Below are positions 51,141 to 59,599 of a stretch of 64,000 nt of DNA, piece after piece. Below the pieces are notes generated by a model that was given only the letters and a program-made list of their open reading frames with translations, had not been told where the DNA came from and did not search any database. The stretch is from assembly GCA_964353855.1 (NCBI GenBank), contig CAYGWX010000008.1, positions 1,958 through 65,957 of the forward strand, written 5' to 3'. This stretch comes from an uncultured bacterium (GTDB lineage Bacteria; Edwardsbacteria; CAYGWX01). Position 1 is the stretch's first letter; each line of letters starts with the position of its first letter. The translations under genes were made by a program, and so were the position numbers.

Positions 51141-51167
51141 GGCTGGAAAGACGTTCCGGTTGCGGTC

Positions 51168-51202
51168 AAAGGGGCGGGATCTTAAGAGGATCCCGCCCCT
51201 TT
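51168..51202 (+). terminator. Intrinsic terminator hairpin
   Basis: AAAGGGGCGGGATC / GATCCCGCCCCTTT. Confidence 0.7.
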
Positions 51203-51226
51203 GACATCGTTTTGCTGACGGAAGGC

Positions 51227-51255
51227 TTGAAAAACCCGAATTATTTATGTATAAT
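51227..51255 (+). promoter_or_regulatory. Sigma-70-like promoter of the porin-cytochrome operon (probably leaderless)
   Basis: TTGAAA-17 bp-TATAAT; ATG at 51262. Confidence 0.65.
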
Positions 51256-51261
51256 TGCCCC

Positions 51262-52497
51262 ATGCGCAGGATGAAAGGATTCTGGCCGCTCGCTGGGCTC
51301 TTAGCCTTCTCCCTTTTACTGGCAGGAATCGCCGGGGCCGGACAAATATCCGGCCAGGCGGGATTAGCCCTCTACGATTATCAATCCCAGGTTCCTGATA
51401 CCATAGGCTCCTCCCAACCGACCGCATCCAATCATCTTATTTCCAGCCAAGTCCTCAACCTGGACATCCGTGATATCGGGACGTACGGGCTCACCTTCCA
51501 TGCGTTCCTGCGGAATACGAACCGTCTGGCCCCCTCGGATTCCACGGGCAGTTTTTTCCGGCTCTACGGCGCCTACCTGGACTACCGCCGGGCCGGCGCT
51601 CCTTTTCATCTCCGGGCCGGGAGGCAGTACGCCGTGGTCGGGATCGCCAGCGGAACGATGGACGGGCTTAAGGCCCGTTACGACCTTAACCGGCGTGTTT
51701 CGCTGACCGGGTTCGCCGGCCTGGAATCCCCCTCCGATTCCCTGAGGGCCTCCTCCTGGAAGGACGGGGGCATGGCGGGAGCAGAGGTCTCCCTGAGGTT
51801 GCCCCGGGAGAGTTATCTCTCCCTTTCCGGATGGCAGTTGAACCGGTATGGCGCGCTGGCCAAGCGAAGGGTGGGGGGAGATTGGGTCACCGGGATGGTT
51901 CCGGGGACCGACCTTTCGGGCCACTTAGAGGGGGACCTGATCAAAAACCGCCTTCATCGCGCGGTTTGGCGGGCGGAGTACCATTCCTGGCAGAGGTTTT
52001 CGCTCTTCGCACGATATGAGTATCGCAAGCCGGTCTTCGGCGAGGGCTCGATCTTCAATACGTTCCAAATCTCGTCCAACCAGGAGGCCGGGGCCGGGCT
52101 GAGCCTCAAGGCGTGGAGGGGCCTGTCTTTGTCCGGGGAAGCCGCCAGGGAGTTCTTCGACAGCGACCGCGCCAACCGCTTATCCCTCACCGCCCAGTCC
52201 GGGCGAGGTTCGATCGCCTATATCCGCCGAACCGGTTGGAGCAGGCGCTCCTGGGACCTCGCCCTGAATGGAGACCGCCCCCTGAGCGACCGGGTGGATG
52301 TCGGGGCGACGTTCAATTACACGAAGTACGAAGACCGGGCCGATCCCGCGATCCTGGATTACACCTTCACCGGGATCGCCCGACTGGGTTTCAGGATCTC
52401 GAAAGGACTCCTGATCACCACGGATGTCGAGAACCTGGTGAACCCGAATTACCTCCAGAACACCCGGTTCCTGGTCCGGGCGTTGTACGATTTTTAG
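51262..52497 (+). CDS. Outer-membrane beta-barrel, putative cytochrome-associated porin
   Basis: Signal peptide, alternating beta-strand pattern, HLRAGRQY, C-terminal FLVRALYDF (terminal Phe); directly upstream of two multiheme genes. Confidence 0.8.
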   Translation: MRRMKGFWPLAGLLAFSLLLAGIAGAGQISGQAGLALYDYQSQVPDTIGSSQPTASNHLISSQVLNLDIRDIGTYGLTFHAFLRNTNRLAPSDSTGSFFRLYGAYLDYRRAGAPFHLRAGRQYAVVGIASGTMDGLKARYDLNRRVSLTGFAGLESPSDSLRASSWKDGGMAGAEVSLRLPRESYLSLSGWQLNRYGALAKRRVGGDWVTGMVPGTDLSGHLEGDLIKNRLHRAVWRAEYHSWQRFSLFARYEYRKPVFGEGSIFNTFQISSNQEAGAGLSLKAWRGLSLSGEAAREFFDSDRANRLSLTAQSGRGSIAYIRRTGWSRRSWDLALNGDRPLSDRVDVGATFNYTKYEDRADPAILDYTFTGIARLGFRISKGLLITTDVENLVNPNYLQNTRFLVRALYDF

Positions 52498-52504
52498 CGT
52501 CTTT

Positions 52505-53395
52505 ATGGATTCCTTTTCACGAAGGCAGTTGTGTTTGCTTTTGATTTTGCTCCCGGGACTCGCCCTCTCAGGTTGGGCCGGGCATCGGGTACCGCGCAAT
52601 TCCCATAAGCTTCACGCCGACCAGGGAATGGACTGCACGGCCTGCCATCCCAACATCGAAGAGAGCACCCTGGCCTCGGACGATAACTCCCCCAGGATGA
52701 AGACCGAGTGCCAACCCTGCCACGCGGACTGGATGGACAAAAAAGAATGCGACCGCTGCCACTATAAACCCGTGGATTCCACGACCCAGGCGCCCTACGA
52801 GAACGAGATCCCGAACTACCACCTGAGCCACAAGGTGCATTTCGCCGAGCAGAAGATGGCCTGTAAGGACTGCCACCCGAACGGGGAAACCGTGGATTAC
52901 GGCGTGCTTGTCACCACCTCCAAGAAGGCCTCCTGCCTGACCTGCCATGATGACCGGAAATCGTCTTCGGCCTGCGCTTACTGCCATCCCGTCATCCCCT
53001 GGCCCCAGACGCATAATGCCTCCTGGCGTAAGACCCACGGAATCCGGGCAAGGGCGAACCCGGCTGATTGTCAGACCTGCCATCCCAGGGAGGACTCCTG
53101 CCTGGTCTGCCACCGGTCCGGGAACGAGCGACCGGCCAGCCACGACCGCAACTACGTCTATAGCCACTGGCAGAGCGCGCGGGGCAAGGAGAACAATTGC
53201 GCCACCTGTCACGATACCCGGACGTTCTGCCAGCCCTGTCACATTACGACGGCGAGCATCCAGCCCCGCTCCCACGTGTCCTTCGACTGGGTCCCGAGCG
53301 GGCACGTCCGCCAAGCCCGGATGGACCTGGAGCGATGCGCATCCTGCCACGACACCCGAAGCCCGGATTGTCTGAGATGTCACAAGAACCGATAG
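52505..53395 (+). CDS. Periplasmic dodecaheme c-type cytochrome
   Basis: Signal peptide; 12 CxxCH counted; two c3/c7-like triheme units (H..H...CxxCH) plus three diheme repeats. Confidence 0.92.
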   Translation: MDSFSRRQLCLLLILLPGLALSGWAGHRVPRNSHKLHADQGMDCTACHPNIEESTLASDDNSPRMKTECQPCHADWMDKKECDRCHYKPVDSTTQAPYENEIPNYHLSHKVHFAEQKMACKDCHPNGETVDYGVLVTTSKKASCLTCHDDRKSSSACAYCHPVIPWPQTHNASWRKTHGIRARANPADCQTCHPREDSCLVCHRSGNERPASHDRNYVYSHWQSARGKENNCATCHDTRTFCQPCHITTASIQPRSHVSFDWVPSGHVRQARMDLERCASCHDTRSPDCLRCHKNR

Positions 53396-53414
53396 CCGGC
53401 AGGAGGGCAGGGCC

Positions 53415-54821
53415 ATGAACAATCGGAGGGCGAAGGTCGTTGTCCTTCCGGCCTTGCTCCTGATGATCCTTCTCCCCTTTGGGTGCAGCCGGAGGAGAGA
53501 TGTCTTCACCAACCCCAAGTCCCCTCATGTCGCGGGATGGAACGAGGAGTTCTCACCCAACTTCCACGGCATCTTCGTGAAGCGGGACGGCGGGCCCTTT
53601 GGGTGCATCACCTGCCATGCCGTGAGCCAGACGGATTCGTCCAGCTACTGCTTCACCAATTGCCACTACGGCCCCTCGGGACGGCCCCATCCTCCGGCAT
53701 GGACGGATTCGTCCACGGCCGAGTTTCACGGGATCCGGGTGGTGAACTACGGGCTGAACACCGTGGTCAACGGCCGGACCCGGCCTTGTACGGACTGCCA
53801 TTACGTGGACAACAAGGACACGCTCTCCTGGTGCTTCCGGGCCTGCCACGACGGTCCGGTGGGCGCGAACCGGCCTCCCCGGAATCCAACGCTTCGGGGC
53901 CACCGCGAAGCCTGGAAGACGGCGGCCAATCCCCGCTCGCTCATCTTCCACGGGAACTACGTGGCCTCCGCGGGCTTCGCTTACTGCAAGGACTGCCACG
54001 GGTCCGATTTCCAGGGCGGGATCGGCCCCTCCTGCGGAAAGCCAGGCTGCCACGACTTCGGGGGCGGCTACACCTTCTTCCCGCACCCGTCATACTGGAA
54101 GACGGATTCTTCCTCTCAGGGGTTCCACGGCCGCTTCGTGCTTCAAAAGGGGAAAGGCATCTGCCAGGCCTGCCACGGAAAAGATTTCGATGGTAAATAT
54201 AACCAAAAGCCTTGTTTCCCCTGTCATGACTATCCCCATCCGGCTCCGGCCATCTATAATGACACCCTCCAGGACAGATTCCACGGAAGACAACTCTGGC
54301 GTTTCGGCAACGAAGCCTGCAAGGTCTGCCACGGGGACACCTCGACCCTGTTCCGAGGGGGACGGGTGAATGTGGGCTGTCTCACTCTCGCCTGCCATCC
54401 CGGGGGGTCGGCCCATGGTCTGCCAGGACCCTCCACGCGTTGGAAACAAGGGCCCCGGACCAATCCTCTCTGGCATGGGAATCAAGTGGGGCGGGATGGC
54501 TTTGCAGCCTGTCGTACCTGCCATGGAGCCAATTTCGATTATAGCGCGCAAGGCTTAGGGCATGGATGCGCATACTTCAACCCTCCCTGCCACGAGCAAT
54601 ACCAGTTTAAACAATACGGGATCAGTCCCCATGAAACACGGGCCTGGAACAGAGGGGATACCCTTCCTCCGCCTCAGGATACGACCCATGCCTGGTGGGT
54701 CAACGCAGTCCGGCACCACACTTATACCGATTGCACCTATTGCCACTTCTCCGCGACCCACTACTGGCGCGACGGAACCCAGGTGTCCAGTTGCCAACCC
54801 TCCTGTTGCCACGGATTTTGA
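53415..54821 (+). CDS. Multiheme c-type cytochrome lipoprotein, up to 14 hemes in 7 diheme repeats
   Basis: Lipobox LLPFGC; 8 CX2CH plus CFTNCH, CFRACH, CGKPGCH, CLTLACH, CAYFNPPCH and CQPSCCH. Confidence 0.88.
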   Translation: MNNRRAKVVVLPALLLMILLPFGCSRRRDVFTNPKSPHVAGWNEEFSPNFHGIFVKRDGGPFGCITCHAVSQTDSSSYCFTNCHYGPSGRPHPPAWTDSSTAEFHGIRVVNYGLNTVVNGRTRPCTDCHYVDNKDTLSWCFRACHDGPVGANRPPRNPTLRGHREAWKTAANPRSLIFHGNYVASAGFAYCKDCHGSDFQGGIGPSCGKPGCHDFGGGYTFFPHPSYWKTDSSSQGFHGRFVLQKGKGICQACHGKDFDGKYNQKPCFPCHDYPHPAPAIYNDTLQDRFHGRQLWRFGNEACKVCHGDTSTLFRGGRVNVGCLTLACHPGGSAHGLPGPSTRWKQGPRTNPLWHGNQVGRDGFAACRTCHGANFDYSAQGLGHGCAYFNPPCHEQYQFKQYGISPHETRAWNRGDTLPPPQDTTHAWWVNAVRHHTYTDCTYCHFSATHYWRDGTQVSSCQPSCCHGF

Positions 54822-54990: not shown

Positions 54991-55019
54991 TTGACAAATC
55001 CTGGTATTTGTGTTACTAT
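54991..55019 (+). promoter_or_regulatory. Sigma-70-like promoter upstream of the AraC-like gene
   Basis: TTGACA-17 bp-TACTAT. Confidence 0.7.
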
Positions 55020-55183
55020 ATTGAGATGATTTACTAAGATAATTACTTGATTTCCGGTCGGGTAGATGACCCAGTCGAGGAAGGTAACATAGAGAGGTCT
55101 TGTGTAAGGGGCTAAGTTGAAGACCGTGACAAGGTGGTCTCAGAGGATGGTCAGGGAGGAGGGTACTCTTTCTCTGGGCCTTT

Positions 55184-55678
55184 TTGTCTTTTGGGGCAGT
55201 CGCCTTGAATTTAATTCAGGGTCGGTGCTTCTTTTTATTCTTGAGAGGGCCTTTGGTTAACAGGAAATCAGGAGAGACTCCGAAGGGAGAGACGAAGCCC
55301 AAGGAGGTTTCCTGGAAGCTCCGCTGGGCGTTCACCCAGGCCGAGGAGATGGAACTGAGGGACCTCTGTCTGGAGAAACTATCCGCTGAGGCCGGACTCT
55401 CCAAATGTTACCTCTCGCGGAACTTCCCGCTCATCGCAGGCTACTCCTTTGAGGAGTATCGGAAGAACCGGCGCATCACCGAGACCAAGAGGTTGCTCAC
55501 CGAGACACCCATGTTCCTGGAGCAAATCGCCTTCGCTCTCGGTTTCGCCCGCTTGGAGGATTTCACCATTTTTGGGGAGGAGACGACGGGGTACAAGCCG
55601 AAAGCCTTCCGGGACTACTACGTGGCGAATGGGAGGTTCCCGCCTGACAAGGGGGGTGCAACAAAACCGCTAAAATAG
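55184..55678 (+). CDS. Stand-alone AraC-type HTH protein (start uncertain)
   Basis: LEKLSAEAGLSKCYLSRNF...GYSFEEY...RITETKRLL.ET...LEQIAFALGF......F...TGYKPKAFR. Confidence 0.75.
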   Translation: MSFGAVALNLIQGRCFFLFLRGPLVNRKSGETPKGETKPKEVSWKLRWAFTQAEEMELRDLCLEKLSAEAGLSKCYLSRNFPLIAGYSFEEYRKNRRITETKRLLTETPMFLEQIAFALGFARLEDFTIFGEETTGYKPKAFRDYYVANGRFPPDKGGATKPLK

Positions 55679-55701
55679 CATTAAAACCGCACTTTTCGCA
55701 A

Positions 55702-55730
55702 TTGACTTCGCCCGCGGTTTGGGGTACAAT
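55702..55730 (+). promoter_or_regulatory. Sigma-70-like promoter
   Basis: TTGACT-17 bp-TACAAT. Confidence 0.7.
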
Positions 55731-55808
55731 TGCCTGGTTGCGGGCGGGGCGATTTCTCGGCCTCAGCCTTAACTGCACCCTGTTGTTTAATTAAAGGAGG
55801 ATCAGAAA

Positions 55809-57254
55809 ATGAAGAAGACGTTAGTGGTAGTCTTAATGTGCGGAGCCCTCTTGCTCCTTGCGGTTACCTCCCTTTTCGCCCAGTGGCAGCCCGATCAGTG
55901 GTTAGCCAACGGTCCAAACGTCTCTGGCTGCAATGCTTGGTGGATCGGCAGCGTAAACAATTACGTCCATGCCGTTTATACCTTAATCGGCCCCACCAGT
56001 AATAGTGTTGCCTATCGGAGATCCACCAATGGCGGAGTGAATTGGCTTTCCGAAGTAACGCTGTGGCCTTCGGAGAACGCCTTACCTCCTTTCCCTTCTG
56101 TGGTTCCAGACTTTCAAAGAGTTCATGTCGTGGCATACTATATAACCGTTACTAATCCGGATAATAGTAATTTTTACTACCGCCGCTCTCCGGATCAAGG
56201 TGCTTCCTGGGAAAATGCGCAAATTGTGATTCCAGGGCCTTACGCTAATCCACCTCCTTGCGCTGCGGAATCCAATGGCAAGGTTCATGCCGTAGGCTGT
56301 GTGGGGCAAAGCACGACTTACATTTATTACAATCGCTCCATTGATTCAGGAACAACCTGGGGTACGGCGATTTCTCTTAACGCTGGTTCGGGACCAACCA
56401 TTGCTGCACAAGACCCCAGAGTCCACTTGGCTTATTTAGGTGCCGATGGGCTTTACTATCGGCGCTCTCTGGATAATGGGGTAACCTGGCAGCCGCCAGT
56501 CAAACTTTTCAGTTACCCCTGGCCTTGCGATTACCCCTCCATTAGGGCCCGTAATTTAAACGTCTATATCGCTTGCAGTCGTTACGAAAGCACAAGCGGT
56601 CATGACCAAATCTTCGTTCTCCAATCCAACAATGGTGGCGCATCATGGGGGTCGCCCGTTCAAGTCACAAATAACCCTTACGATTCCAGGTATCCAAACC
56701 TTGCTGTTTCCGGAAACTTTCTCCATATGACTTGGTGCCTGGATAACGCTAACGGCCATAACCTTTACTATTCCCGCAGGGCCCTTGCTCCGGGTTCGCC
56801 GTGGGTTCCATTCACGCAGTTAACCTCGGACAATGGCGCTTATTACCCTTCTACTTCGGTCGGAGGTGGAAGGGTAGATGTAGACTGGAACGATTGGGGT
56901 TCTCAACTATTGTACAAACGCAATCCCACGGGCGATCAAAGTGGTGGAGGCATTACTGACGGCGGCTCGCGTTGGCCAGCGGACAGCACCTCCGCTACTT
57001 CTGCAGTCGAAGAATCTCCTCCGATTAAAGTTCAGGGCTTGCCTGACACTTACGAGATTTCTCCCAATCCCTTTGTCTACTCAGCCTCGATCCCAGGCCA
57101 CGAGGCCGAGCGCTTTGTCCTTTACGATGTTTCCGGTAGACAGGTGGGAAATTATCAGGGTAACCGAATCGGGTCCGATGTTCGTCCAGGGGTTTACTTC
57201 CTCAAGGTGGAAGCCAAGAACTCCACACTGTTGCGGATTGTAAAGCTGAGATAG
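55809..57254 (+). CDS. Secreted BNR/Asp-box (sialidase-like) propeller with short T9SS-like tail
   Basis: AAAGGAGG RBS, signal peptide, five S.D/N.G..W Asp-boxes; tail PNPF..SASIPGHEAERF.LYDVSGR..GVYFL..RIVKLR; lower GC. Confidence 0.88.
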   Translation: MKKTLVVVLMCGALLLLAVTSLFAQWQPDQWLANGPNVSGCNAWWIGSVNNYVHAVYTLIGPTSNSVAYRRSTNGGVNWLSEVTLWPSENALPPFPSVVPDFQRVHVVAYYITVTNPDNSNFYYRRSPDQGASWENAQIVIPGPYANPPPCAAESNGKVHAVGCVGQSTTYIYYNRSIDSGTTWGTAISLNAGSGPTIAAQDPRVHLAYLGADGLYYRRSLDNGVTWQPPVKLFSYPWPCDYPSIRARNLNVYIACSRYESTSGHDQIFVLQSNNGGASWGSPVQVTNNPYDSRYPNLAVSGNFLHMTWCLDNANGHNLYYSRRALAPGSPWVPFTQLTSDNGAYYPSTSVGGGRVDVDWNDWGSQLLYKRNPTGDQSGGGITDGGSRWPADSTSATSAVEESPPIKVQGLPDTYEISPNPFVYSASIPGHEAERFVLYDVSGRQVGNYQGNRIGSDVRPGVYFLKVEAKNSTLLRIVKLR

Positions 57255-57279
57255 TTAGGCAATCCATCGTCAGTATCCT

Positions 57280-57313
57280 AAAGAAAGGGCGATCTTTGGA
57301 TCGCCCTTTCTTT
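57280..57313. terminator. Bidirectional intrinsic terminator
   Basis: AAAGAAAGGGCGATC / GATCGCCCTTTCTTT. Confidence 0.8.
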
Positions 57314-57326
57314 TTGTTTACTTGTA

Positions 57327-57563
57327 GTGTCTGAGGCCTCCAGTCCGCGTTCCGTAGTTTTAAAATACGGAATCAGTCCCCACCACGACACCCGGGCTTG
57401 GGCCAGCGGCGATACCCTCCCACCGGCCGGGGATACGACCCATGCCTGGTGGGTCAACGTGGTCCGGGGACGGGATTCAACCGATTGCTCCTATTGCCAT
57501 TACGCGCCGAATCATTACTGGAGGGACGGAACGCTGGTGACCGTCTGCCAGTACTGCCACTGA
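57327..57563 (+). pseudogene. Orphan copy of the last diheme repeat of the 53415-54821 cytochrome (fragment or small ORF)
   Basis: KYGISPHHDTRAWASGDTLPPAGDTTHAWWVN...DCSYCH...HYWRDGT...CQYCH*; 29-bp exact match 57431-57459 = 54677-54705; no signal peptide. Confidence 0.8.
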
Positions 57564-57656: not shown

Positions 57657-57707
57657 TATCACGTTCAAAAGAGAATGGGCATGGGGAAGTTTAAAAAGGA
57701 GGAAGAC

Positions 57708-58514
57708 ATGAAGAAAGGCTTATCATTCCTTTTGGCCCTGGGCCTGGTTTTGGTCCTCGCCGGCCCGCTCACCGCGCACGTGTGGCTGCTCGGCTTTTCC
57801 GGAGCCCCGGGGACATACGGAGTCTGCAGCAGAACCTGCCACTGCTATCCCGGCGGAACGCTGAGCGTGAATGGCTTTCCGGATCATTACAGTCCCGGCC
57901 AGACCTATACCATCAGCGTGACCCACATCGGGGGGGACTCCATCGAGAATTTCAATTGCTCCGTCCGGATCGGGCAAGGGGCAGAGAATGCCGGACTTCT
58001 GCAAGCCGGATACCTCACCGAGACTACCTTCGACAGCGTGGAGACCAACGGGGTTCACGCCCTCGCCCGGTGCGACAGCTGCGATTTCCTCTGGACCGCC
58101 CCGCCGGTGGGCACGGACACGGTCCGGCTCTATTTCGGGGGGATGCAAGGCATCGAGGGGGAATGGGGCCGGAATACGGAGTATATATTGACCGCGCCGG
58201 AGTTCACCGGAGTAGAAGAGCAGGCAGGCCTTCAGCCGAAAAGCGAATCCTTCGACCTGCGCCTGGCGGGCGCGAACCCGGCCCGGAACGGGGTTGCCCT
58301 GGCCTACCGCCTGGACGGCAAGGGGCCGGCGCAGCTCAGGGTCTACGACCTCGCCGGACGGCTGGTGAGGTCCTTCACGGTCAGAGGCAGCTCGGGGATC
58401 CTGCGATGGGACGGTCGCGACGCCCGGGGGGCGCTATCGGCCCCAGGAGTCTACCTGTTGCGTCTGGAGCAGGGGAACCGCTCCTCCACCGGGAAGGCTG
58501 TGCTGATCCGATAA
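57708..58514 (+). CDS. Secreted Reeler-like / choice-of-anchor V-like protein with FlgD/T9SS-type tail
   Basis: AAGGAGG RBS, signal peptide, GFSGAPGTYGVCSRTCH, YSPGQTYTISV, FLWTAP, VRLY; tail YDLAGRLV..WDGRD..GVY. Confidence 0.75.
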   Translation: MKKGLSFLLALGLVLVLAGPLTAHVWLLGFSGAPGTYGVCSRTCHCYPGGTLSVNGFPDHYSPGQTYTISVTHIGGDSIENFNCSVRIGQGAENAGLLQAGYLTETTFDSVETNGVHALARCDSCDFLWTAPPVGTDTVRLYFGGMQGIEGEWGRNTEYILTAPEFTGVEEQAGLQPKSESFDLRLAGANPARNGVALAYRLDGKGPAQLRVYDLAGRLVRSFTVRGSSGILRWDGRDARGALSAPGVYLLRLEQGNRSSTGKAVLIR

Positions 58515-58534
58515 ATCCCAAATCCTTAATCTCG

Positions 58535-58561
58535 AGGGCTGCGAACAGCAGCCCTTTTTTA
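58535..58561 (+). terminator. Intrinsic terminator
   Basis: AGGGCTGC / GCAGCCCT followed by a T run. Confidence 0.75.
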
Positions 58562-58586
58562 TTTTGGCTGAGGATAACAATCAAGA

Positions 58587-58615
58587 TTGACAAATCGTAG
58601 TGTTTATGATAAAAT
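58587..58615 (+). promoter_or_regulatory. Sigma-70-like promoter
   Basis: TTGACA-17 bp-(TGn)TAAAAT. Confidence 0.75.
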
Positions 58616-58801
58616 ATCTTTCTTAAAACGATCGGACAAAGGGGACTTAAAAAGGGGAAAGCCATGGTTAAAAGTTACTCATTCCTTTTGGCCTTGGGCC
58701 TGGTTGAAGCCTTGGCTGACCCAGCGGAACAATTTGCGTTGCCTGTTTTCCCGTCCGCTACCAGTAAAGCCTTGTTGATCCATAAGAAGGAAGATGCAAA
58801 C

Positions 58802-59599
58802 ATGAAGAAAGACATAGTGCTCATTTCGATTTTGATGCTAACTTGGGCGGCATCGCTCGGGGCCTATACTTTCACGACCGGTTTTTCCGGAGCTCCCGGA
58901 AGTTACGGGCTCTGCGCCAGCACCTGTCACGGCGTACCCGGGGGCACGATTACCATAACCGGCTTCCCGGCAAGGTACCGGCCCGGACAAACATATACTG
59001 TCAAAATTTACGGGGATTCCATTAGGCAGTTTAACGGCTCCTGCCGGGTGGGCACGGACACCCTGAACGCAGGGACGATTACCGCGGACTACAACACCGA
59101 GGTCTACAACGTGTTCGGTGAGACCAACGGCATTCACCTCCTGGTGCCTTCCAGCGACAGCGGGGCGTTCCTCTGGACTGCCCCCGACCCCGGCGTGGAC
59201 ACGGTACGGCTCTTCATCGCGGGCGAGCAGGGCATCATGTCCTTCGGCCCGAACACGGAGTTAGTTTTTGTATCCGCCCAGGCCACAGGGGTAGAGGAGC
59301 AAGGCCAGGAAGGCATGAAGGATAGAAGGATGTGGACCAGGGTCACGCCGAATCCCTTCCAAAAGCAATGCGCGATCACCTATGGGCCTCTTGCGGGTGG
59401 CCCGGCCAGGCTTTCTGTCTTTGATTACAGGGGGCATGTGGTAAGGGTTCTCACGACCTACTCCTCTCGCCTTTCACCTCACACATTCATATGGGATGGC
59501 CGGGATGTTTCGGGCCGACGGGTCCCTCAGGGCGTCTACCTCTTCCGCTTGGAACAGGGGAACCGCTCCTCCACCGGGAAGGCTGTGCTGATCCGATAG
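58802..59599 (+). CDS. Second Reeler-like / choice-of-anchor V-like protein with FlgD/T9SS-type tail (in-frame upstream ATG at 58664)
   Basis: Signal peptide from 58802; GFSGAPGSYGLCASTCH, YRPGQTYTV, FLWTAP; same terminal LEQGNRSSTGKAVLIR as its paralog. Confidence 0.75.
   Translation: MKKDIVLISILMLTWAASLGAYTFTTGFSGAPGSYGLCASTCHGVPGGTITITGFPARYRPGQTYTVKIYGDSIRQFNGSCRVGTDTLNAGTITADYNTEVYNVFGETNGIHLLVPSSDSGAFLWTAPDPGVDTVRLFIAGEQGIMSFGPNTELVFVSAQATGVEEQGQEGMKDRRMWTRVTPNPFQKQCAITYGPLAGGPARLSVFDYRGHVVRVLTTYSSRLSPHTFIWDGRDVSGRRVPQGVYLFRLEQGNRSSTGKAVLIR

What the first reader, a model, noticed from the sequence alone, without database searches (positions are those of the whole stretch)
51262..54821. 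Porin-cytochrome conduit (barrel + 12-heme + up to 14-heme lipoprotein)
Seen: three tightly spaced genes (7- and 19-bp gaps) behind one promoter, with 26 potential heme sites. Established: porin + periplasmic multiheme + outer lipoprotein multiheme is the layout of Geobacter Pcc and Shewanella Mtr conduits. Inference: extracellular electron transfer in an amino-acid-fermenting, T9SS-bearing lineage; the components do not look like MtrA/MtrB by motif, so this may be a distinct conduit family.
Basis: partly seen in the sequence, partly recalled or inferred. Interest (0 to 1): 0.7.

Follow-up and report, generated by a model that had tools for sequence, protein, structure and literature searches.

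The report
Porin-cytochrome outer-membrane electron conduit operon
Three co-transcribed genes encode a 22-strand outer-membrane barrel, a 12-haem cytochrome that is always found next to such a barrel, and a 14-site haem lipoprotein; this is a known kind of electron conduit across the outer membrane, found here in the only cytochrome-making member of a small phylum.

Summary
Three + strand genes lie at 51262-52497, 52505-53395 and 53415-54821, with gaps of 7 and 19 bp. They follow a terminator and one near-consensus promoter and carry 12 + 14 haem-binding motifs. Gene A has no Pfam or NCBIfam match, but it belongs to a large unmodelled family (589 representative clusters). With a deep alignment it folds confidently (pLDDT 93) as a 22-strand barrel with short loops. 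In all 21 family loci inspected, from Ignavibacteria-like, Cloacimonadota-, Deltaproteobacteria-, Myxococcota- and Gemmatimonadota-labelled genomes, a multihaem cytochrome gene lies beside the barrel gene. In 19 of those loci that neighbour is a homologue of B.

The layout matches the published Ignavibacterium album-type Pcc cluster. It is not Mtr.

The genome has ccmBCEF. It also has homologues of the Rieske/cytochrome b/multihaem complex and the small tetrahaem that sit beside such operons elsewhere. No haem-copper oxidase was found. None of the other 18 species genomes of the phylum has Ccm or this barrel.

Caveats: no quinone biosynthesis genes were found, and the direction of electron flow, the substrate and the surface exposure of C are inferred only. 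Verdict: a new member of a known kind, of moderate interest.

The parts
51165..51205 (+). Intrinsic-terminator-like hairpin (19-bp stem) that closes the upstream BNR/T9SS gene and isolates the operon
51227..51255 (+). Promoter-like site TTGAAA-17-TATAAT (11 of 12 matches). The -10 box ends 7 nt before the ATG of A, so the mRNA may be leaderless
51262..52497 (+). Gene A: outer-membrane 22-strand beta-barrel, 411 aa. It has a Sec signal peptide, a C-terminal ...LVRALYDF beta-signal and no Cys motifs. It belongs to an unmodelled barrel family that is always found beside multihaem cytochrome genes
52505..53395 (+). Gene B: 12-haem c-type cytochrome, 296 aa, about 22 residues per haem. It has a signal peptide (cleavage near SGWA|GH) and no lipobox, and is built of c7-type trihaem and dihaem modules. 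It is a full-length homologue of the cytochrome encoded beside the barrel in other lineages
53415..54821 (+). Gene C: probable lipoprotein (…LLPFG|CSRRRD), 468 aa, with 14 haem sites in seven dihaem repeats (8 CXXCH + 6 CX3-6CH). A GGAGG Shine-Dalgarno sequence lies 9 nt upstream
55184..55678 (+). AraC-type HTH (HTH_18) regulator just downstream with its own promoter-like site (54991-55019). It lies inside a 2.35-kb stretch that is absent from the 90%-identical relative L005, so it is probably not an integral part
57327..57563 (+). Orphan 78-aa copy of the last dihaem repeat of C (2 CXXCH, no signal peptide). It is also present in relative L005
57675..58514 (+). Choice-of-anchor V domain protein with a T9SS C-terminal sorting domain and a conserved CX3CH (CSRTCH). 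It is syntenic with the operon in relatives L005 and L006. A link to the conduit is speculative
58664..59599 (+). Tandem paralogue of the previous gene (CASTCH). It is absent from L005

Best explanation
A-B-C is a Pcc-type porin-cytochrome complex, that is, a haem wire through the outer membrane.

Shown:
- A is a 22-strand, short-looped outer-membrane barrel.
- B is a lean 12-haem periplasmic cytochrome. Its gene is inherited together with the barrel gene across phyla.
- C is an N-terminally Cys-anchored protein with 14 haem sites.
- The genome can mature c-type cytochromes (ccmBCEF).

Inferred:
- B threads into the lumen of A and so bridges periplasm and cell surface.
- C is lipid-anchored at the outer face and takes electrons from B.
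- Electrons arrive from a membrane Rieske/cytochrome b/9-haem complex (contig C37), perhaps via a soluble c554-like tetrahaem (contig C19). Homologues of both are physically linked to such operons in other lineages.
- Net flow is probably outward to Fe(III)/Mn(IV) minerals or humic substances in the sediment and peat habitats of this organism. This would give a member of an otherwise Ccm-free phylum an external electron sink.
For: Anatomy:
- ORFs, gaps, 26 sites, promoter and terminator.
- AF2 with a 72-sequence alignment gives pLDDT 93.1 and pTM 0.83, 22 strands, and no loop longer than 17 residues.
- Foldseek finds only generic outer-membrane barrels. The best TM-scores (0.55-0.58) are to 24-strand usher pores that pass folded proteins.
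- The sequence has a C-terminal aromatic beta-signal and a signal peptide.

Family and synteny:
- An exhaustive profile search finds 589 representative clusters, 81 of them at E <= 1e-30.
- In 21 of 21 family loci inspected, an ORF with 3 or more CXXCH lies directly beside the barrel gene.
- In 19 of those 21 loci the neighbour is a homologue of B. Identity is 26-35% and E reaches 4e-46.

Partners:
- Rieske, cytochrome b and the 9-haem protein on C37 are 28-35% identical (E 1e-22 to 7e-73) to the trio next to the barrel operon in L010 and L011.
- The C19 tetrahaem is 35-38% identical to the small cytochrome that precedes the barrel in L003, L009 and L012 and lies in the neighbouring bc-type cluster in L010.
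- No haem-copper oxidase was found, so the bc-type complex has no oxidase to feed.

Maturation: ccmB, C, E and F are present.

Same organism:
- Tetranucleotide correlation of contigs C8, C13, C19, C37 and C66 with the genome mean is 0.96-0.99.
- The operon scores 0.91 against a median of 0.925 for random 3.56-kb pieces.

Expression and habitat:
- A sediment metatranscriptome holds short contigs of 88-99% identity on A, B and C.
- DNA of the locus occurs in sediment, peat, freshwater and cave metagenomes.

Literature: the layout, the porin size (18-22 strands), porin/periplasmic-cytochrome co-evolution and atypical CX3-15CH motifs confined to the outer cytochrome are the published features of Pcc clusters (PMC4245776).
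Against: - No experiment exists on any member of this subfamily. I. album, which has the analogous cluster, did not grow on Fe(III) or Mn(IV) oxides (PMC4245776).
- No MenA, no MqnA/D and no recognisable quinone prenyltransferase were found. The quinol source is therefore unproven, although the MAG is only 87.6% complete.
- Three close homologues of C have Arg at lipobox position -1. Nothing shows that C faces outward.
- Pcc-associated genes lie on other contigs here, so the link to Rieske/cytochrome b and c554 rests on synteny in other organisms.
- The metatranscriptome evidence comes from short assembled contigs and could include DNA carry-over.
Confidence: 0.72

Rival explanations
1. The hardware is the same, but it works inward. 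The conduit would take up electrons from Fe(II), reduced humics, a cathodic mineral or a syntrophic partner, as MtoAB and PioAB do. It would pass them to the periplasm, for example to NrfA for nitrite ammonification.
For: Sequence cannot give direction. The genome has nrfHA as its only recognisable periplasmic terminal reductase. No oxidase was found. The habitats are redox-cycling sediments and peat.
Against: As of the 2014 survey, no Pcc-type cluster had been found in a known Fe(II) oxidiser (PMC4245776). NrfA has its own quinol-linked NrfH. The other 18 species genomes of the phylum lack Ccm and this barrel, which is compatible with fermentative relatives (not tested here). For a member of such a lineage an extra electron sink is the simpler gain.
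Confidence: 0.13
2. This is not a trans-membrane wire. A would be a substrate channel that admits a soluble or colloidal oxidant (polysulfide/S0, selenite, chelated metal) into the periplasm. B and a periplasm-facing lipoprotein C would reduce it there.
For: Geobacter ExtI is a porin in a cytochrome cluster implicated in selenite and tellurite reduction (PMC5877670). Several Pcc-bearing organisms respire S0 or selenate (PMC4245776). The orientation of C is unknown, and its lipobox is imperfect in homologues.
Against: A 22-strand barrel whose loops are all 17 residues or shorter, with no plug, would be an open hole roughly 3 nm wide unless it is filled. This estimate comes from strand-number geometry and was not measured on the model. 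The strict co-inheritance of barrel and B-type cytochrome across phyla is what a structural partnership predicts, not what a diffusion channel predicts.
Confidence: 0.1
3. The operon is a decaying or silent leftover with no present function in this organism.
For: An orphan fragment of C lies nearby, and the neighbourhood has insertions and duplications. No quinone pathway was found.
Against: All three frames are intact. All 26 motifs are conserved in relatives of 77-93% identity from many samples. Transcript-derived contigs were detected.
Confidence: 0.03

Closest known systems
Ignavibacterium album-type Pcc cluster (IALB_1840-1837) as described by Shi, Fredrickson & Zachara 2014 (PMC4245776)
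   Same: The gene order is barrel, then a large periplasmic multihaem, then an outer-membrane cytochrome with atypical CXnCH motifs. Metagenomic family members L003, L010 and L012 reproduce the published I. album layout: a small periplasmic cytochrome, a 423-444 aa barrel, a 14-haem protein of about 417-431 aa, and a lipoprotein cytochrome with one atypical motif. Their barrels and 14-haem proteins are homologues of A and B. One family representative is an NCBI Ignavibacteria MAG protein.
   Different: - Identity is only 21-30%.
- B has 12 haems, not 14, and 296 aa, not about 400.
- C is much larger (14 sites in seven dihaem repeats, against 6+1 sites) and lacks the Geobacter CxxxxCH...CXXCH Pfam motif that the L003 and L012 proteins carry.
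- The small tetrahaem and the Rieske/cytochrome b genes are unlinked here.
- The IALB proteins themselves could not be fetched for a direct comparison.
Geobacter sulfurreducens OmbB-OmaB-OmcB (Pcc), PMC4282303 and PMC4589669
   Same: The gene order is the same (porin, periplasmic cytochrome, outer lipoprotein cytochrome). The porin is of a similar size, about 20 strands and well below MtrB. The proposed mechanism is the same. Ignavibacteria porins of this sort were picked up by an OmbB-seeded HMM (PMC7399161).
   Different: OmaB has 8 haems and OmcB 12. Sequence homology of A, B and C to OmbB, OmaB and OmcB was not testable here. No TetR-like OrfR regulator is present.
Shewanella MtrCAB (PDB 6R2Q) and MtoAB/PioAB
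   Same: The principle is the same: a multihaem cytochrome sheathed by an outer-membrane barrel, with a lipoprotein cytochrome outside.
   Different: - MtrB has 26 strands in the crystal structure (my knowledge; 28 were predicted in PMC4245776), against 22 here.
- No NCBIfam model matches A.
- B scores 16.4 bits against the 192-bit cut-off of the DmsE/MtrA model.
- C has no MtrC-family match above cut-off.
- MtrB is not among the top Foldseek hits.
c7-polymer 'nanowire' cytochromes of Geobacter (GSU1996 family; PDB 3OUQ fragment) and trihaem PpcA/c7
   Same: The N-terminal half of B matches Cytochrome_C7 (E 3e-14). It also matches c7 and hexahaem-fragment chains weakly (E 1e-3). This fits a linear chain of c7-type modules. 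That 3OUQ is a GSU1996 fragment is my own knowledge.
   Different: Those proteins are free periplasmic cytochromes, not barrel partners. The similarity is at domain level only.

Membership tests
Pcc porin-cytochrome gene cluster (sensu Shi et al. 2014, PMC4245776) | [quoted passage not shown] | tested here: met
   A and B are 7 bp apart. A is a predicted 22-strand barrel and B is a 12-CXXCH protein with a signal peptide
Pcc porin-cytochrome gene cluster (sensu Shi et al. 2014, PMC4245776) | The porin is smaller than MtrB, with 18-22 trans-membrane strands | tested here: met
   22 strands in the AF2 model, pLDDT 93.1
Pcc porin-cytochrome gene cluster (sensu Shi et al. 2014, PMC4245776) | [quoted passage not shown] | tested here: met
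   C has the signal LLPFG|C and 8 typical plus 6 atypical motifs. B has none of the atypical kind. Caveat: Arg at position -1 in three homologues
Pcc porin-cytochrome gene cluster (sensu Shi et al. 2014, PMC4245776) | The porin and the periplasmic cytochrome are co-inherited or co-evolve, while the outer cytochrome is far more variable | tested here: met
   B homologues lie beside A homologues in 19 of 21 loci. The rank order of similarity is roughly shared (L009 is the best match for both). C matches third-gene cytochromes only repeat-wise
Pcc porin-cytochrome gene cluster (sensu Shi et al. 2014, PMC4245776) | The complex transfers electrons across the outer membrane or a lipid bilayer | not testable with these tools
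   This needs biochemistry or genetics
Sequence homology to G. sulfurreducens OmbB/OmaB/OmcB, ExtB/E, ExtI | A significant profile match to HMMs seeded with GSU2733, GSU2644, GSU2726 or GSU2939 | not tested
The only indirect pointer is that Ignavibacteria PCC porins were called OmbB-like in PMC7399161
Shewanella-type Mtr (MtrA/DmsE decahaem; MtrB/PioB barrel) | The barrel matches an MtrB/PioB-family model; the periplasmic cytochrome matches the DmsE/MtrA family (TIGR03508) above cut-off | tested here: not met
   A has no NCBIfam or Pfam family at E <= 0.1. B scores 16.4 bits against the 192.2-bit cut-off for TIGR03508
Fused porin-cytochromes (Cyc2; GM18_3465 type) | Haem-binding motif(s) lie within the barrel polypeptide | tested here: not met
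   A has one Cys and no CXnCH motif
   CcmF (741 aa), CcmE (a CPSKY Cys variant), CcmC and CcmB are encoded at C13:39614-44271. ResB is absent. Contig composition matches the genome

The most novel reading that the evidence does not exclude
The conduit may not end at C. Two choice-of-anchor V proteins are encoded just downstream (57675-58514 and 58664-59599). One copy is syntenic with the operon in relatives. Each carries a T9SS sorting tail and a conserved CX3CH. Within the phylum this domain occurs only in the one genome that has Ccm. These proteins could be c-type haem proteins that are matured in the periplasm, exported folded by the type IX secretion system and anchored on the cell surface as the terminal electron-transfer layer. 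That would be a T9SS-dependent extension of a porin-cytochrome pathway.
Probability: 0.1. Interest if true: 0.7.

Novelty: new member of a known kind. Interest (0 to 1): 0.4.

Why it matters
- It adds an uncultured small phylum to the lineages that carry porin-cytochrome conduits. Among the 19 species genomes held for this phylum, only this one has c-type cytochrome maturation and this barrel. The genome also holds the other candidate pathway modules named here: a Rieske/cytochrome b/9-haem complex and a c554-like tetrahaem. This suggests a lineage-specific change from pure fermentation to mineral- or humic-linked electron disposal in sediments and peat.
- The barrel and its partner cytochrome form a large family (at least 589 representative clusters, spread over several phyla by the labels of the genomes that carry it) with no Pfam or NCBIfam model. 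HMM-based surveys of extracellular electron transfer therefore probably under-count it.
- It is not a new mechanism, and nothing here has been shown experimentally.

Tried and rejected
- Word-indexed homologue searches found only near-identical relatives for A and C and added nothing with the wide alignment. Only the exhaustive profile search revealed the family.
- The search for related loci on genome contigs found nothing with the close alignment. Named genomes were reached indirectly through GroEL loci.
- Naming the phylum failed. Cluster look-ups of GroEL, L2 and DnaK gave no organism names. The best GroEL hits were 'candidate division FCPU426' MAGs, but these received new genome handles outside the 19-genome phylum set, so that guess was dropped.
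- The first AF2 run with 10 sequences was poor (pLDDT 59). It was superseded by the 72-sequence run.
- Foldseek against the PDB gave only generic barrels and no solved Pcc or Mtr-like partner. PDB sequence searches gave nothing for A or C.
- The ResB/System II search was negative.
- MenA, MqnA/D and UbiA-family classification gave no quinone prenyltransferase.
- C does not match the Geobacter CxxxxCH...CXXCH Pfam motif, although distant third-gene cytochromes do.
- Recent horizontal transfer or mis-binning was considered and rejected. Composition is normal, and the operon sits in a 69-kb contig with housekeeping genes (relA) and conserved synteny in relatives.
Full report
**Observation**

- A is 51262-52497 (411 aa). 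A longer ORF from 51247 exists, but all homologues begin at the MRR(T/M)KG position.
- B is 52505-53395 (296 aa).
- C is 53415-54821 (468 aa).
- The gaps are 7 and 19 bp.

B has 12 CXXCH motifs and 24 histidines. C has 8 CXXCH, 2 CX3CH, 3 CX4CH and 1 CX6CH. These are arranged as seven pairs: a canonical site followed 10-15 residues later by a second site that is mostly atypical. The total is 26 sites.

A 19-bp-stem terminator (51165-51205) closes the upstream BNR/T9SS gene. A TTGAAA-17-TATAAT site (11 of 12 matches) lies at 51227-51255. No other promoter-like site on the + strand lies inside the operon. The genome has only six ORFs with 3 or more CXXCH in 2.8 Mb, so this is not chance.

**Gene A**

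A has no Pfam, NCBIfam or PDB sequence match. The word-indexed search found only relatives of 69-93% identity plus one at 22%.

An exhaustive HMMER search with the small alignment found 589 representative clusters at E <= 1e-3, 281 at E <= 1e-10 and 81 at E <= 1e-30. Most of the 150 hits listed are 400-450 aa, the rest being mainly shorter fragments; the 60 whose ends I read mostly begin with a hydrophobic, signal-peptide-like N-terminus followed by a (G/A)R(L/F)xTSxY start, and many end in aromatic-rich tails.

With 72 of these sequences, AlphaFold2 gave pLDDT 93.1 and pTM 0.83. The model is a 22-strand barrel in which no loop exceeds 17 residues. With only 10 sequences the pLDDT was 59.

The most conserved family motifs are GRQ...G..G..DG and P....NSIFSVF. 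The second lies in the longest loop.

Foldseek against the PDB returns only generic barrels. The best query-normalised TM-scores (0.55-0.58) are to 24-strand usher pores, which pass folded subunits.

By standard barrel geometry, a 22-strand barrel has a C-alpha diameter near 4 nm. This is my calculation and was not measured on the model. That is the size class of TonB-dependent transporters, which hold a plug domain of about 150 residues. A plug-less barrel of this size has to be filled by something.

**Synteny**

I inspected the surroundings of family members from three sets:
- seven metagenomic contigs (L003 and L007-L012);
- eight named genomes (L093-L100);
- five further named genomes (L109-L114).

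All 21 loci have an ORF with 3 or more CXXCH directly beside the barrel gene, usually immediately downstream.

That neighbouring cytochrome (9-14 CXXCH, 270-431 aa) is a homologue of B in 19 of the 21 loci. Identity is 26-35% and E values reach 4e-46. The barrel and the B-type cytochrome are therefore a co-inherited pair.

C is different. It matches the third-gene lipoprotein cytochromes only repeat by repeat. Its unit resembles the 133-aa, 2-haem lipoprotein of L009. C therefore looks like a lineage-specific seven-fold expansion.

All 14 sites of C are conserved in homologues of 78-92% identity. The last site alternates between CQPSCCH and canonical CQSCH/CQYCH, and site 10 between CX4CH and CX6CH. 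This argues that the atypical sites bind haem.

The carriers that bear names are an Ignavibacteria MAG and MAGs labelled Cloacimonadota, Deltaproteobacteria/Thermodesulfobacteriota, Desulforhopalus, Myxococcota/Polyangia/Kofleriaceae and Gemmatimonadota.

**Comparison with what is known**

Shi et al. 2014 (PMC4245776) define Pcc clusters by the following features:
- a porin-like protein of 18-22 predicted strands next to a periplasmic cytochrome of 5-14 haems;
- usually also an outer-membrane cytochrome;
- co-evolution of the first two and extreme variability of the third;
- atypical CX3-15CH motifs found only in the outer cytochrome.

All the sequence-level features are met here.

The I. album cluster is described as IALB_1840 (periplasmic cytochrome), 1839 (porin), 1838 (14 haems, 400 aa) and 1837 (outer cytochrome with an atypical motif). 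L003, L010 and L012 reproduce that layout, and their barrel and 14-haem proteins are homologues of A and B.

PMC7399161 reports that Ignavibacteria PCC porins are detected by an OmbB-seeded HMM. I could not fetch the OmbB, Ext or IALB sequences, so direct homology remains untested.

Mtr membership was tested and failed. No NCBIfam model matches A, and B scores 16.4 bits against a 192-bit cut-off for the DmsE/MtrA family.

**The rest of the pathway**

- The genome encodes CcmF, CcmE (with a CPSKY cysteine motif), CcmC and CcmB on contig C13. It has no ResB.
- Contig C37 carries a Rieske protein (CTHLAC...CACH), a cytochrome b (PF00033, E 1e-51) and a 9-haem cytochrome with a C-terminal membrane helix. 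All three are homologues of the Rieske-cytochrome b-multihaem trio that lies directly beside the barrel operon in L010 and L011 (E 1e-22 to 7e-73).
- Contig C19 carries a c554-like tetrahaem. It is 35-38% identical to the small cytochrome that precedes the barrel in L003, L009 and L012 and lies in the neighbouring bc-type cluster in L010.
- nrfHA is on contig C66.
- No haem-copper oxidase was found. The bc-type complex therefore has no oxidase to feed, and the Pcc-type operon is the obvious outlet.
- All these contigs match the genome's tetranucleotide signature (0.96-0.99). The operon itself is compositionally ordinary.

**Lineage and habitat**

The phylum holds only 19 species genomes in the collection. 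This genome is the only one with the barrel, with Cytochrom_C_asm proteins and with the choice-of-anchor V domain. I could not name the phylum.

The locus occurs in sediment, peat, freshwater and cave metagenomes. A sediment metatranscriptome contains short contigs of 88-99% identity over A, B and C. This is weak support for expression.

**Weak points**

- No MenA, MqnA/D or recognisable quinone prenyltransferase was found in a MAG that is 87.6% complete.
- Three close homologues of C have Arg at lipobox position -1, although the Cys and the following SRRRD are invariant.
- The insertion of B into A, the surface exposure of C, and the direction and substrate of electron flow are all inferred.
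- I. album, the cultured carrier of the analogous cluster, did not grow on Fe(III) or Mn(IV) oxides (PMC4245776).

**Verdict**

This is a real, intact and probably expressed Pcc-type porin-cytochrome conduit (confidence about 0.7). It belongs to the Ignavibacterium-like subfamily rather than to a new family. Its points of interest are its unusually large, repeat-built outer cytochrome, its presence in a phylum that otherwise lacks cytochrome c maturation, and the fact that its barrel family has no Pfam or NCBIfam model.

Earlier notes of this scan list about 200 porin-cytochrome findings. One describes a 22-strand barrel with an always-adjacent 12-haem cytochrome in uncultured FCB lineages. 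That note agrees with my independent result and lowers the rarity of this finding.

Noticed in passing
window 57327-57563: This is an orphan 78-aa copy of the last dihaem repeat of C, with no start context or signal peptide. It is closer to the C-terminus of a 77%-identical homologue (P0014) than to this genome's own C. It is also present downstream of C in relative L005 (L005:7962-8089, 92.7% identity).
   Followed up: partly
window 55073-57423 and 58514-59530: Compared with the roughly 90%-identical contig L005, the window carries a 2.35-kb insertion (an AraC-type regulator plus a BNR/T9SS-tail protein) between C and the choice-of-anchor V gene. It also carries a tandem duplicate of that gene.
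   Followed up: partly
window 57675-58514, 58664-59599: Two choice-of-anchor V (NF041895) proteins with T9SS sorting tails keep a CX3CH (CSRTCH, CASTCH). Within the 19-genome phylum the domain is found only in this genome, as are Ccm and the barrel. They may be T9SS-exported haem proteins.
   Followed up: partly
genome contig C13:39614-44271: The ccm cluster (ccmB, C, E, F, with an ABC-ATPase-like ORF upstream) has a CcmE that carries CPSKY in place of the usual His motif. This is the Cys-type CcmE known from Desulfovibrio and archaea (my knowledge). No CcmH was seen nearby. NuoC- and NuoF-like genes are adjacent.
   Followed up: partly
genome contig C37:2206-5139: Rieske, cytochrome b and a 9-haem membrane-anchored cytochrome form a bc-type complex. 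The genome has no detectable haem-copper oxidase.
   Followed up: yes
genome contig C66:4068-5833: nrfH and nrfA are present (the CXXCK motif CMTCK is there). This is a cytochrome c nitrite reductase and the only other obvious client of Ccm.
   Followed up: no
whole genome G000: No MenA, MqnA/D or recognisable quinone prenyltransferase was found, although quinol-dependent modules are present. The cause may be incompleteness, quinone scavenging or a divergent pathway.
   Followed up: partly
window 51249-51264: The -10 hexamer of the operon promoter ends 7 nt before the ATG of A, and no Shine-Dalgarno sequence is present. The mRNA may be leaderless, or the consensus promoter call may be wrong. 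B also lacks an SD, whereas C has GGAGG.
   Followed up: no
L003:5574-6434, L012:8613-9548: The third-gene lipoprotein cytochromes of Ignavibacteria-like relatives carry the Pfam 'Geobacter CxxxxCH...CXXCH' motif above cut-off. Their lipid-anchor Cys is followed by acidic residues (CSELDN, CSKLEE) that resemble a Bacteroidota surface-lipoprotein export signal.
   Followed up: no
genome contig C19:27554-32335: The c554-like tetrahaem gene lies near ORFs that look like the hypC, hypD and hypE hydrogenase-maturation genes by size and order. This was not tested with profiles.
   Followed up: no
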